Positions 21,001 through 24,000 of a stretch of 64,000 nucleotides of DNA are shown piece after piece (within the stretch, counting starts at the first letter, position 1; every line of letters begins with the position of its first letter). The stretch lies in NCBI GenBank assembly GCA_038890745.1, contig JAWAFD010000001.1:188907-252906 (forward strand). The letters run 5' to 3'. Source of the stretch: Candidatus Anstonellales archaeon (lineage in GTDB: Archaea > Micrarchaeota > Micrarchaeia > Anstonellales > J096). Position numbers: made by a program.

Positions 21001-24000
21001 AACAACCGGCTTCACGCTTTTTTCTCCGAAAGGATTTGTTGAAACATGACCCAACCCCGTCCCAACGATAACAATTCCTCTGTAATCAAAGAACACATCA
21101 AATATTTTTGGATTCATTCCAGGATAAAAATATATCAAACCAACCTCTTCGCTAAACCTATTATCAAACTTAATCCCGCCAGTATTTCTTTTTCTGTACT
21201 CAAAAGTTTTCTCAAATCTCTTTGTTCTGTAATCAACTTTTGCAAGCGGTGGAATGTTTATGCTTTTGAATGCATCCCGCCTACTCGTATGCATTTTTCT
21301 TACCTTCACCCCTCTATGAACAAATCCAAAATCGTCATTGGAGGTTGCATGCATCACAGCGACAACCTCACCCAAATCCTGTTTTGCAGTGAAGACAGCA
21401 TTGAGTAAATTCAGCTTGTTATCGCTGCTCGGCCTGTCTGCGCTTCTCTGCGCGCCAGTGAAAACAACAGGAACAGGAAGGTTTTGAATGGCAAAAGCCA
21501 TCGCAGAGCATGAGTAATGCATGGTATCTGTTCCATGCAGAACAACAATCCCCTTTGCCCCATCCTCTATCCCCTTTCTTATCTCATCAGCCATGATTCT
21601 CCAGTGCTCTTGATGCATATCTTCGCTCAAAACAGAAAAAACACTTTGCGCATCTATCGTTGCTATTTCCTCTATTTCCGGAAAAGTGGTTGCAAGCTCC
21701 TCTGCGCTCATGTAAGGATAGACAGCACCTGTTTTGTACTCAACCTTTGATGCAATCGTCCCTCCACATCCGAGAATTCTTATTTCCGCCTTTTTCCTTC
21801 TCCCGCTAACTTCCTTTGGCTTACTTATTTTTTCTTTTCCAACAATTTCGATTTTTTCCACATTCTTTCTATCCATTCCAACATTATACCCACTGTTTAA
21901 TTTTAAAACAATCCTTTCATTGTCCGTTTGCGGCATTACCATTCCTTCTATTGTTTTTCCCTTCCAAACAACCCTTACCCTATCTCCGCTTTCCATTTTA
22001 CTCATCCCATTAGCGCAACGAGTATTGCGTTCTGCGCATGCAATCTGTTCTCTGTTTCATCAAAAACAACGCTCCACTTCCCATCTATTACCTCATCCAC
22101 AACCTCATGCCCTCTATGCGCAGGCAGGCAGTGCATGAATATTGCATCCTTTTTTGCTTTTTTCATAACCTCCAGGTTCACCTGGTACGGTTTCAAATCA
22201 GCGAGCCTCTGCTGCTCGTTCTCCTGCCCCATGCTTACCCATGTATCTGTGATTACAACATCAGCACCATCCACCAAACTTACATCATGCCCGATTACTA
22301 TTTTGCCCTTTGCTTGTTTTTTGGCTTTCTCGAATACGTCTGGTTTTGGTATGTACTCAGGCTTTTTTGGGCATATTCCGTAAACATCTGCACCTAATTT
22401 CGAAAACCCTATCATTGTTGAGTGAAACATGTTAAAACCACAGTCCCCTAAGAAAACAACCTTCAGCCCTTTCACATCTCCTTTGTGCTCAAAAACGGTC
22501 ATCATATCTGCCATAGTTTGGCATGGATGGAACATATCTGTTAAGCCATTGATCACAGGAACGGTAGAATATTTTGCAAACTCCTCTATTGTGCTGTGCT
22601 TGTAAAGCCTGGCCATCACCCCATCCACATACCTTGAAAAAGTTCGTGCGGTATCCGCTATGCTCTCCCCCCTTCCCAGCTGGGTTGTTCTCATATCAAC
22701 ATAGAGTGCATGCCCCCCCAATTTTGTCATACCAACTTCAAAACTTACCCTCGTCCTTGTAGATGGTTTTTCGAAAAGAAGAGCCAAGCTCTTTCCCTTC
22801 AAATTTTTCTTTACCTTCCCTTTTTTCATCTTTATGGCCAGGTCGATAAGCTCCCTTACCTCGCTCTCTGTATAATCCAAAAGGGTTAGAAAATGCCTTC
22901 CCCTATATTTTTTCAGATTCATCTGCTCACCCGGCACTTATTCCAAATAAATGTTTTTAATGCTTGCGTTATCAATCAAAAATATGGAAAAGATTTTTGC
23001 GAATAGGCGGAGCATAAGAAGCTTCAAACCCAAACCAGTTGAGGAGAGCAAAATAAAAGAGATTATGGATGCGATAACCTCTGCCCCTTCAGCGGGAAAC
23101 CTCCAGGGCTACAGGGTTTTCTACACAAGAAAGAGCGAGGTTATAAAAAATGTTGCAGGGGCATGCTGGCAGGAATGGATAGAGGAAGCACCAGTTGTTT
23201 TTGTTTTTTTCGCAGACCCAAAAACCTCAGGGGCAAAATACGGAAAGAGGGGAGAAAGCCTTTATTGCATTCAGGATGCTACGATCGCGTGCGCGTATGC
23301 TCAGCTTCAGGCATCTGCCCTTGGGCTTGGTGCATGTTGGGTAGGGGCTTTTGATGATGAGAAAATAAAGGAAATTTTCAAAGCCCATTCCTTAATTCCG
23401 GTTGCTATCCTTCCGGTCGGTTATCCTAACGAATCCCCATTCCCAAGACAAAAGAAGAATAGAATTACGGAGATATGATCAGAGTCAAGTCACCTCATCA
23501 TTAATCAGAGATCACTTCCATCATCACTTATTCTATTTAACCAGCAGAAATGATTTTAAATGCTTTCTTTCAATTTTTTGCATGAAAATAGAAAAGACAT
23601 TTGTTTGCAAAGGATGCGGAAACAAGCTGAACATAAACAGCGAGGTTGAACTTAACGAGATTGACCTTACACTTTTCGGCAAATGCCCGTACTGTGGAGC
23701 AACAGTCCAGGTTTCAGTGATAGTTGAGAAGAGCGCCCCGGCAGCAACGAACGTTGATGAGCAGGTGATAAAGGAAGAGATGGAGATACCTGCCGGAAGC
23801 TTGGACAACCTGTTCAAATAAAACACTAAACTCCCCCATGGTTATGCATCGCTTTTCGCTATTCTAATTTATGCAAAACATCCGTCAATATTTCTATTTT
23901 TTCTATTTCATACGTTGGTTTATACCTTTTTGCTTTACCTATAAGAACGCTTCTCATCTTCATCCTCCTCGCCATCCTTATATCCGTTTCCTCACTATCT

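What a model noticed while it worked through the whole genome (the two positions that open the first line are those of the whole stretch)
23479..23527. Five ultra-compact 48-49 nt C/D box sRNAs with a rigid 12-nt-guide/4-nt-loop design, conserved across the family
The genome encodes at least five box C/D guide RNAs. All are intergenic, all lie on the minus strand, and all follow one rigid plan of 48-49 nt with no terminal stem: C box RTGATGA, 11-12 nt guide, D' CTGA, 4-nt loop, C' TGATGA, 12-nt guide, D CTGA. They lie at C1:128470-128518, C1:212385-212433, C4:30967-31014, C4:96719-96767 and C4:63021-63069 (the last with C box GTGAGGA). Guides point to the 16S 3' end (GATCACCTCC, methylation at C3:16429), the 16S decoding-centre helix (ACCGCCCGTCAA, at C3:16309, and C3:16315) and the 23S rRNA (C1:189132). 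I found no earlier description of guide RNAs in Micrarchaeota.
Evidence so far: The strict pattern gives 4 hits, all intergenic. Allowing 1-4 box mismatches gives 25 hits, of which 5 are intergenic. The exact 49-nt pattern occurs in 18 of 19 genomes of the family (54 hits) and 0 times when the pattern is read backwards. Orthologues keep the guides but vary the loop; for example ATGAACAA..CT / GGCT.ACAGCG recurs in G130, G343, G083, G401 and G269. rRNA complementarity is 11 of 12 pairs for the named guides. Fibrillarin g00230, Nop5 g00226 and L7Ae g00679 are present. In two other-order genomes the relaxed pattern finds 1 and 0 hits, so the rigid design is a trait of the family.
(Added by a program. 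Inside this text positions count along the whole contig: contig position 188,907 is position 1 of the stretch shown here. "Call 12" and the like, gene names such as g00115 and contig names such as C1 are that model's own, and its searches are not shown. The text may have been shortened before it was handed on; [...] marks where a part breaks off. The agent that wrote the report below was given it as the finding of a first reader that could run no searches.)

Follow-up and report, generated by a model that had tools for sequence, protein, structure and literature searches.

The report
Box C/D guide RNA, tiny archaeon
This 49-base stretch is almost certainly a real small guide RNA of a tiny DPANN archaeon that points a methylating enzyme at two spots near the decoding end of its small ribosomal RNA; it is a good new example of a well-known RNA class built to the standard archaeal plan, not a new design.

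Summary
Window 23527..23479 (minus strand) reads C box, 12-nt guide, D', 4-nt loop, C', 12-nt guide, D. It is one of exactly five such elements in the genome. Chance expectation for the strict pattern is about 5e-5.

Both guides match this genome's own 16S rRNA at 11 of 12 Watson-Crick pairs. The predicted ribose methylation sites are A1408 (helix 44) and C1533 (3' tail, anti-Shine-Dalgarno region). The sister sRNAs point at C1402, G2251 (P loop), U2552 (A loop), U2504 and U2438. Three of these are the 2'-O-methyl sites conserved across the domains of life.

Supporting evidence:
- Guides are conserved in relatives, with compensatory guide/target changes.
- A TATA-like box sits about 30 nt upstream.
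- Fibrillarin, Nop5 and L7Ae genes are present.

There are no expression data.

The "rigid ultra-compact design" is the canonical archaeal layout: the Rfam sR9 consensus has the same 7-12-4-4-6-12-4 plan. The same pattern occurs in 54 of 151 genomes across the phylum, so it is not a family trait. Nanoarchaeum equitans, another DPANN archaeon, already has described C/D sRNAs. This scan also noted a Micrarchaeota C1402/C1533 guide earlier, in another genome.

Verdict: new member of a known kind.

The parts
23479..23527 (-). Box C/D sRNA, measured box to box (49 nt)
   Evidence: Read directly. Full-length but sub-threshold matches to the archaeal C/D families sR9 (26.4 bits, E 0.0023), sR2, sR17 and snoPyro_CD. 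Best hit of covariance model R1 (41.3 bits, E 8.3e-11). Identical at 49/49 in the congener G016, while the flanks differ (49/55 upstream, 26/40 downstream, ungapped).
23521..23527 (-). C box GTGATGA
   Evidence: This column block is invariant in the alignment of 33 family sRNAs, apart from R at position 1 and one G variant.
23509..23520 (-). D' guide TGGAAGTGATCT. It pairs with the last 12 nt of 16S rRNA (C3:16425-16436, AGATCACCTCCA). The N+5 target is C3:16429, equivalent to E. coli C1533.
   Evidence: 11 of 12 WC pairs, with one internal A.C mismatch at guide position 8 counted from the D' box. Numbering comes from alignment to an annotated E. coli 16S. The same guide module is present in 10 family genomes whose 16S is in hand. 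Genus g3 has the version AGAGGTGATCT, which lacks that internal mismatch.
23505..23508 (-). D' box CTGA
   Evidence: invariant.
23501..23504 (-). 4-nt loop TTAA between D' and C' (the K-loop)
   Evidence: Loops are 3-6 nt long and variable among relatives.
23495..23500 (-). C' box TGATGA
   Evidence: invariant.
23483..23494 (-). D guide GGTGACTTGACT. It pairs with the 5' strand of 16S helix 44 (C3:16311-16322, CGTCAAGTCACC). The N+5 target is C3:16315, equivalent to E. coli A1408.
   Evidence: 11 contiguous WC pairs; only the box-adjacent position is unpaired. Numbering. There is a compensatory change in genus g5: guide GATGAC with target GTCATC, against GGTGAC/GTCACC here.
23479..23482 (-). 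D box CTGA, directly abutting the stop codon of the convergent nitroreductase gene
23554..23560 (-). TATA-like box TTTAAAA, 27-33 nt upstream of the C box; the likely sRNA promoter
   Evidence: In 71 family sRNAs with flanks, 53 of 91 TATA-like motif starts fall at -34..-28 from the C box. The function is inferred.
22951..23478 (+). Flanking gene: nitroreductase family protein (convergent with the sRNA)
   Evidence: Pfam PF00881, E 3.2e-28.
23582..23821 (+). Flanking small ORF with weak zinc-ribbon matches (divergent from the sRNA). The ATG at 23582 leaves 23479-23581 intergenic.
   Evidence: The Zn-ribbon hits are below the Pfam cut-offs.
29972..30631 (+). Nop5 (Nop domain) gene, an RNP scaffold protein
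   Evidence: PF01798, E 4.7e-55, 185 bits, open frame of 264 aa.
32982..33623 (+). Fibrillarin gene, the methyltransferase of the RNP
   Evidence: PF01269, E 1.5e-85, 285 bits. The closest named relatives are 'Candidatus Micrarchaeota archaeon' MAGs.
1..559 (+). 3' part of the 23S rRNA gene. It holds the targets of sister sRNA C4:96719: window 226 is U2552 (A loop) and window 178 is U2504.
   Evidence: Rfam LSU_rRNA_archaea. Targets and numbering.

Best explanation
The element is a gene for a canonical archaeal dual-guide box C/D sRNA.

Inferred mechanism:
- It is transcribed from its own TATA-type promoter about 30 nt upstream.
- The RNA folds into a C/D kink-turn and a C'/D' kink-loop.
- These bind L7Ae, then a Nop5 dimer and two fibrillarin copies.
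- The two 12-nt spacers pair with nascent 16S rRNA.

Targets:
- The D guide pairs with the 5' strand at the top of helix 44 (E. coli 1404-1415). This places fibrillarin on the ribose of A1408.
- The D' guide pairs with the 3'-terminal 12 nt, including the anti-Shine-Dalgarno CCUCC. This places fibrillarin on C1533.
- Because both sites lie in the 3' minor domain, the RNP probably also acts as a transient folding chaperone there.

It is one of five such sRNAs in the genome. Together they address the decoding centre (C1402, A1408, G1497 weakly, C1533) and the peptidyl-transferase centre (G2251, U2552, U2504, U2438).

Shown here: sequence architecture, non-randomness, complementarity, conservation and covariation, and presence of the protein genes.

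Inferred only: transcription, RNP assembly and methylation.
For: Architecture and non-randomness:
- Exact canonical boxes and 12/4/12 spacing.
- 4 strict hits against 4.8e-5 expected, with 0 in the reversed genome and 0 in 20 Markov simulations.
- The covariance model finds 5 hits and nothing else up to E 10.
- Full-length alignments to Rfam archaeal C/D families.

Targets:
- Both in-window guides have 11/12 WC pairs to the genome's own 16S.
- 3 of the genome's 10 guides have <=1 mismatch to rRNA, against a mean of 0.20 in 300 shuffled sets (maximum 3).
- 6 guides have <=2 mismatches, against a mean of 2.5; 1.7% of shuffled sets reach that.
- N+5 positions, mapped by alignment to annotated E. 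coli rRNA, fall on C1402, A1408, C1533, G2251, U2552, U2504 and U2438.
- Cm1402, Gm2251 and Um2552 are the ribose methylations conserved across domains (PMC11542601, passages and Table 1).
- A1408, G2251 and U2552 are already predicted C/D targets in other archaea, including N. equitans for A1408 (PMC4644070, passages).

Conservation:
- The strict pattern is in 19/19 family genomes, 72 hits, with 0 backward hits.
- Against congener G016, guides are 93/95 identical and loops 12/16, while flanks have diverged.
- Compensatory guide/target changes occur at the A1408 site (genus g5) and the U2552 site (G001).
- The U2504 guide matches the family-specific C at E. coli position 2503.

Other:
- The TATA-like motif is positionally enriched at -34..-28.
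- Fibrillarin, Nop5 and L7Ae genes are present.
- There is no significant self-structure (z -0.71), as expected for unstructured guides.
Against: - There is no expression, RNP or methylation evidence of any kind.
- The D' guide has an internal A.C mismatch to this genome's own 16S. This leaves 7 contiguous pairs next to the box plus 4 more, so methylation of C1533 is less certain than that of A1408.
- In G000 alone the guide/rRNA statistics are only moderately strong. The shuffle maximum for guides with <=1 mismatch equals the observed 3.
- No Rfam family reaches its gathering score.
- One sister sRNA (C1:128470) has no convincing rRNA target.
- The C1402 guides of all family members carry 1-3 internal mismatches. 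In G000 the mismatch is adjacent to the N+5 pair.
- E. coli numbering rests on alignment to strain copies that are 4 nt (16S) and 1 nt (23S) shorter than the canonical lengths. I corrected these using recalled landmarks.
Confidence: 0.85

Rival explanations
1. The RNA is a real C/D RNP, but at one or both sites it acts only as a folding chaperone or 3'-end shield and does not methylate. In this reading the D' guide covers the anti-Shine-Dalgarno tail of pre-16S until late maturation.
For: - The D' guide has an internal A.C mismatch that is kept in three genera (G000/G016, G003, G011).
- It pairs with exactly the last 12 nt of the 16S model match.
- Chaperone roles for dual guides aimed at sites close in structure are proposed in PMC4644070 (abstract and passages) and PMC7994747 (abstract).
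- Sister sRNA C4:30967 addresses both strands of the top of helix 44.
Against: - The D guide has 11 contiguous pairs across the N+5 position, which is the usual requirement for methylation.
- Relatives in genus g3 have the D' guide without the internal mismatch.
- Fibrillarin is retained in a roughly 1-Mb genome.
Confidence: 0.1
2. The element is a regulatory RNA whose GGAAGUGAUC stretch mimics a Shine-Dalgarno sequence and titrates mature 30S subunits. It would not be a modification guide.
For: The D' guide is complementary to the anti-SD region.
Against: - The stretch sits at the exact guide position between canonical C and D' boxes.
- It is accompanied by a second guide to helix 44.
- It belongs to a family whose other members target the PTC.
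- Nothing else supports a sponge role.
Confidence: 0.02
3. It is a decaying or silent relic of a guide RNA gene that is no longer expressed.
For: - There are no expression data.
- The D' guide has an internal mismatch.
- The genome is reduced.
Against: - It is 49/49 identical to the congener while the flanks diverge.
- All four boxes are perfect.
- A TATA-like box sits at the family-typical distance.
Confidence: 0.03

Closest known systems
Archaeal dual-guide box C/D sRNAs, such as Pyrococcus sR9 (Rfam RF01312), sR2, sR17 and snoPyro_CD
   Same: The layout is identical: RUGAUGA, 12-nt guide, CUGA, 4-nt loop, UGAUGA, 12-nt guide, CUGA. The sR9 consensus aligns end to end. The protein partners are the same.
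   Different: The guides differ, so no Rfam family reaches its gathering score (26.4 against 36 bits for sR9). The host is a Micrarchaeota MAG. There are only five per genome, against dozens in hyperthermophiles.
Nanoarchaeum equitans C/D box sRNAs (Randau 2012, PMC3491384; targets in Dennis et al. 2015, PMC4644070)
   Same: - The host is a DPANN archaeon with a reduced genome.
- The sRNAs are described as compact with unpaired ends (passages).
- Some have their own box A promoter about 26 nt upstream, and some follow tRNA genes.
- A predicted target at E. coli A1408 is reported for N. equitans.
- Some guides pair with the two strands of one helix.
   Different: N. equitans has 26 sRNAs and RNA-seq proof. 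Here there are 5 and no expression data. I did not compare the sequences directly.
Guides and enzymes for the conserved ribose methylations Cm1402, Gm2251 and Um2552: E. coli RsmI/RlmB/RlmE, eukaryotic snoRNAs, and H. marismortui Gm1950 by aFib+sRNA
   Same: The sister sRNAs of this genome point at exactly these three positions. The sites are listed as conserved in PMC11542601.
   Different: Here all three would be RNA-guided. H. marismortui is listed with RlmE for Um2552. In G000 the only FtsJ match is weak (29.6 bits in a 352-aa frame), so a dedicated RlmE is doubtful but not excluded.

Membership tests
Archaeal box C/D sRNA (class) | Terminal C box RUGAUGA and D box CUGA | tested here: met
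   GTGATGA at 23527-23521 and CTGA at 23482-23479.
Archaeal box C/D sRNA (class) | Internal D' (CUGA) and C' (UGAUGA) boxes separated by a short loop (K-loop) | tested here: met
   CTGA, TTAA, TGATGA. These columns are invariant in 33 family sequences.
Archaeal box C/D sRNA (class) | Guide spacers of 10-12 nt between C and D' and between C' and D | tested here: met
   Both are 12 nt. The norm is stated in PMC7994747, Introduction.
Archaeal box C/D sRNA (class) | Guides complementary to rRNA or tRNA, with a paired nucleotide at N+5 | tested here: met
   Both guides have 11/12 WC pairs, and N+5 is paired at A1408 and C1533. The shuffle control is moderately supportive. Guide/target covariation is seen in relatives.
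Archaeal box C/D sRNA (class) | Genome encodes L7Ae, Nop5 and fibrillarin | tested here: met
   PF01248 E 1.9e-29, PF01798 E 4.7e-55, PF01269 E 1.5e-85.
Archaeal box C/D sRNA (class) | Stable small transcript that is bound by L7Ae (kink-turn) and directs 2'-O-methylation | not testable with these tools
   No RNA holder was listed. No biochemical data exist.
Rfam sR9 / sR2 / sR17 / snoPyro_CD (specific families) | Score at or above the family's gathering threshold | tested here: not met
   The best match is sR9 at 26.4 bits against a threshold of 36. There was nothing at gathering score in the window-wide scan. It shares their architecture but is not a member of any of them.

The most novel reading that the evidence does not exclude
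In these roughly 1-Mb Micrarchaeota genomes the guide-RNA repertoire has shrunk to a near-minimal set. That set still covers the three ribose methylations conserved in all domains (Cm1402, Gm2251, Um2552), all of them RNA-guided. It also includes a guide that base-pairs with the very 3' end and anti-Shine-Dalgarno tail of 16S rRNA (C1533). I did not find that target described in the passages I read. It could couple modification or chaperoning to 3'-end maturation or to the availability of the anti-SD. The guide modules for the helix 44 and 3' tail region are re-assorted between sRNA scaffolds in different genera. One family member may act on an intron-containing pre-tRNA-Cys, at C39.
Probability: 0.3. 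Interest if true: 0.55.

Novelty: new member of a known kind. Interest (0 to 1): 0.35.

Why it matters
It adds unannotated guide-RNA genes to a poorly studied DPANN phylum. No Rfam family reaches threshold, and no paper in the searched library describes them for Micrarchaeota.

It also gives a small, testable map of which rRNA riboses a genome-reduced archaeon still bothers to methylate. The predicted set coincides with the universally conserved sites at the decoding and peptidyl-transferase centres. That fits the view that these are the indispensable core of ribose methylation.

The finding does not reveal a new RNA design or mechanism.

Tried and rejected
- **Expression.** The look-up of sequencing runs listed no RNA holder: one metatranscriptome of the same study with next to none of the words.
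- **Chance.** Rejected.
- **Structured RNA.** Rejected: fold z -0.71.
- **Genome-wide paired-guide target scan.** Too noisy to use. The first version gave hundreds of sites and its output was cut. With WC sum >=20, shuffled guide sets give a mean of 6.3 sites. On that criterion alone, the pre-tRNA-Cys candidate for sRNA C1:128470 is not significant genome-wide.
- **A 16S target for C1:128470.** G011's D guide matches a hairpin in its own 16S (11 WC + 1 GU), but G000 and others do not match at the homologous place.
- **Supplement 1 of PMC4644070.** I read part 1 and searched it for position numbers, hoping to find a previously predicted 3'-tail target. Nothing usable came out. Whether C1533-type targets are listed there remains unchecked.
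- **Earlier scan note on a tRNA-Met intron guide.** A regex look at C1:37900-38300 for a C'/D' pattern found nothing, and ARAGORN called no tRNA there. This was a crude look, not a test of that note.
- **The last table (P-loop guides in relatives).** The script crashed after the G000 row. The P-loop data for relatives come instead.
Not repeated.
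Full report
**1. What is there**

On the minus strand, window 23527..23479 reads GTGATGA | TGGAAGTGATCT | CTGA | TTAA | TGATGA | GGTGACTTGACT | CTGA, 49 nt. 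It lies in a 103-nt gap between two genes:
- A nitroreductase-family gene (22951-23478, +; PF00881, E 3.2e-28). Its stop codon abuts the D box.
- A small ORF with weak zinc-ribbon matches, whose in-frame ATG is at 23582.

Rfam finds nothing here at gathering thresholds. In E-value mode the stretch aligns end to end with several archaeal C/D families: sR9 at 26.4 bits (E 0.0023), plus sR2, sR17, snoPyro_CD and sR5. The RNA has no significant self-structure (MFE -13.9 kcal/mol, z -0.71).

**2. More than chance**

- There are 0 hits in the reversed genome and 0 in 20 third-order Markov simulations. The expectation from base composition is 4.8e-5.
- Allowing up to two box mismatches adds only C4:63021-63069.
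- I built a sequence-only covariance model from 33 family sRNAs. Over the whole genome at E<=10 it returns exactly these five, with E from 8.3e-11 to 2.2e-9, and nothing else. Only 150 of 303 first-look candidates were scored.

**3. Targets**

The 16S gene is at C3:13670-16436 and the 23S gene at C1:184353-189465.

In-window sRNA:
- The D guide has 11 contiguous Watson-Crick pairs with CGTCAAGTCACC (C3:16311-16322). Only the box-adjacent base is unpaired.
- The D' guide has 11 of 12 pairs with AGATCACCTCCA (C3:16425-16436). These are the last 12 nt of the 16S model match. There is one internal A.C mismatch.

To number the targets I aligned these regions to annotated E. coli rRNA genes. The fifth-nucleotide rule then gives A1408 and C1533 for the in-window sRNA. 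The E. coli copies used are 4 nt (16S) and 1 nt (23S) shorter than the canonical lengths. I corrected the offsets using recalled landmarks: C1402 in CCGCCCG, U2552 in GGCUGUUC, and G2251 in CUGGGGC.

Sister sRNAs:

| sRNA | Guide | Target | Pairing |
|---|---|---|---|
| C4:30967 | D | C1402 | 11/12 |
| C4:30967 | D' | AGUCGUA, i.e. G1497 | 7 contiguous pairs only |
| C4:96719 | D' | U2552 | 10 WC + 1 GU |
| C4:96719 | D | U2504 | 8 WC + 2 GU |
| C4:63021 | D' | G2251 in the P loop | 10 WC + 1 GU |
| C4:63021 | D | U2438 | 10 WC |

Shuffle control (300 shuffled guide sets):

| Criterion | Observed | Shuffled mean | Note |
|---|---|---|---|
| Guides (of 10) with <=1 mismatch | 3 | 0.20 | shuffled maximum is 3 |
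| Guides (of 10) with <=2 mismatches | 6 | 2.5 | reached by 1.7% of sets |

On its own this is moderate support. The stronger argument is where the sites fall. Cm1402, Gm2251 and Um2552 are three of the four ribose methylations of E. coli rRNA. They are the ones listed as conserved in archaea, yeast, human and plants (PMC11542601, passages and tables seen). Dennis et al. 2015 (PMC4644070, passages seen) already predict C/D-guided methylation in other archaea:
- at the A1408 equivalent in S. acidocaldarius and N. equitans;
- at G2251 in three species;
- at U2552 in five species.

**4. Conservation**

- A slightly wider strict pattern hits 19 of 19 genomes of the family, 72 hits in all including G000. 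Read backwards, the pattern gives 0 hits.
- Against the congener G016, the four shared sRNAs have guides identical at 93 of 95 positions and loops at 12 of 16. The R of the C box varies. Flanks are much more diverged in ungapped comparison. The in-window sRNA itself is 49/49 identical.

I fetched rRNA fragments from relatives, 16S from 16 of 18 and 23S from 15 of 18. I compared each guide with its own genome's rRNA:
- The A1408 guide occurs in 8 genomes with 16S in hand. In genus g5 the guide reads GATGAC where the target reads GTCATC, against GGTGAC/GTCACC elsewhere. This is a compensatory double change.
- At the U2552 site, G001 has guide CAAACT with target GGTTTG, against CAACCT/GGGTTG. This is again compensatory. 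Two congeners there have a wobble and a mismatch.
- The U2504 guide core ACAGCG pairs with CGCUGU. This includes a C that all 16 family 23S fragments carry where E. coli has A2503.

These are few events and the genomes are related, but they point the right way.

**5. Guide modules are re-assorted**

The 3'-tail guide is paired with different partners in different genomes:
- with the A1408 guide in G000 and G016;
- with a C1402-type guide in G013, G014, G011, G005 and others.

The A1408 guide is paired with the G1497-type guide in G017 and in genomes of another family (f2) in the same order. [quoted passage not shown]

**6. Promoter and context**

TTTAAAA lies 27-33 nt upstream of the C box. 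In 71 family sRNAs with flanks, 53 of 91 TATA-like motif starts lie at -34..-28 from the C box. This argues for independent transcription starting a few nt before the C box. Promoter function is inferred, not shown.

**7. Machinery and taxon**

- Fibrillarin (window 32982-33623) and Nop5 (29972-30631) lie in the window. L7Ae is on C3.
- The nearest named fibrillarin relatives are 'Candidatus Micrarchaeota archaeon' MAGs, at 57-83% identity.

**8.

The 'rigid 12/4/12 design' is not special.
- The Rfam sR9 consensus shown has the same 7-12-4-4-6-12-4 layout.
- The review PMC7994747 (Introduction read) gives 50-70 nt and 10-12-nt guides as the archaeal norm.
- N. equitans sRNAs are described as compact with unpaired ends.

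Nor is the design a family trait. The strict pattern hits 54 of 151 sampled genomes of the phylum, in 10 of 20 families, with 0 backward hits. Some guide modules are shared with other families; for example, the U2552/U2504 pair and the A1408 guide occur in other families of the order. Family f1 has more strict hits per genome (3-7 against 0-2). Because the pattern tolerates no box variation, the lower counts elsewhere do not show absence.

**9. Open points**

- There are no expression data. None was listed (see Tried and rejected).
- The A.C mismatch in the D' guide is shared by G000, G016, G003 and G011. I cannot explain it.
- All C1402-type guides carry 1-3 internal mismatches.

sRNA C1:128470 has no convincing rRNA target in G000.
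- Its two guides are complementary to each other (CAGGTT against AACCTG), so any target would be the two strands of a hairpin.
- The best candidate in genus g1 is the intron-containing pre-tRNA-Cys(GCA) at C1:9270-9475. The D guide has 11 contiguous pairs inside the 133-nt intron. The D' guide has 9 WC + 1 GU across the intron/exon-2 junction, with N+5 at C39 by my reading of the cloverleaf.
- G016 keeps both pairings, with one compensatory change and two wobble-compatible changes.
- Against this candidate, the long intron is absent from G004 and G011, which do have the sRNA.
- Such paired matches are also not significant genome-wide.
- I rate it as a candidate only.

**10. Literature on novelty**

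| Search terms | Papers |
|---|---|
| Micrarchaeota + fibrillarin | 0 |
| Micrarchaeota + 'box sRNA' | 0 |
| Micrarchaeota + snoRNA | 3 listings, titles on other topics (listings and abstract starts only seen) |

These searches cover only the held library. This scan had already noted two related elements in other genomes (AI notes):
- a Micrarchaeota C/D sRNA aimed at C1402 and C1533;
- a U2552 guide inside a 23S intron of another tiny hot-spring archaeon.

**Verdict**

This is a genuine gene of an ordinary class and a new member of a known kind. Interest is modest. It lies mainly in the near-minimal repertoire aimed at the universally conserved methylation sites and in the guide to the 16S 3' tail.

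Noticed in passing
window 1-145 and upstream (C1:188320-189050): The 23S gene spans 5.1 kb against a 2,987-position model, and the 16S gene spans 2.77 kb against 1,478 positions. A roughly 716-nt insertion interrupts 23S domain V just after GGGGGTAA (about E. coli 2449). Most family relatives lack it: their target offsets differ by 716 nt, and they match only from window 146 on. The first ~30 nt of window 100-136 recur at six other places in G012, so this may be a mobile intron end.
   Followed up: partly
window 177 (C1:189083): All 16 family 23S fragments examined read TCGCTGTCGGCT. That is C where E. coli has the near-universal A2503. The U2504 guide is matched to this C.
   Followed up: partly
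G000 C1:9270-9475 and other tRNA loci: ARAGORN with introns allowed finds only 20 tRNAs. Eleven of them have predicted introns of 17-255 nt, for example Cys 133, Arg 122, Met 113 and Ser 255. Pieces of the tRNA-Cys intron recur at C2:163565, C2:141429, C1:141980, C2:249106, C2:249185 and C1:313832, and also in G016. This may be a small repeated element family.
   Followed up: partly
window 23528-23581: The AT-rich TTTAAAA/TTTTAAA box lies about 27 nt from the C box on the minus strand and about 25 nt from the ATG of the divergent small ORF on the plus strand. It may be a shared bidirectional TATA box with a leaderless mRNA. This is inference only.
   Followed up: no
L008:1501-1635 (G005), L009 (G006), L028, L108, L110: In G005 two sRNAs sit in tandem 37 nt apart, and G006 has the same arrangement. 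Three family sRNAs directly follow what look by eye like tRNA 3' ends (GGTTCGA.TCC...). This suggests dicistronic tRNA-sRNA units as in N. equitans. I did not check them with a tRNA finder.
   Followed up: no
window 29972-33623: Nop5 and fibrillarin are not adjacent; they are separated by about 2.3 kb of other sequence. In many archaea the two genes are neighbours (recalled, not tested).
   Followed up: no
G000 C1:113576-113998; window 38089-38544: The only FtsJ-domain match is weak (29.6 bits in a 352-aa frame), so a dedicated RlmE for Um2552 is doubtful. One SpoU-family methylase (93.9 bits, 240 aa) lies in the window; its substrate is unknown.
   Followed up: partly
several genomes: G000 lacks further conserved sRNA families that occur in relatives. 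One is (G)ACGAGGTATTT / AAAGAGAGTC.., seen in many genomes of families f9 and f10 of the class. Another is CACCGGAT.. / ..CTTGAGTG in f1. I did not work out their targets.
   Followed up: no
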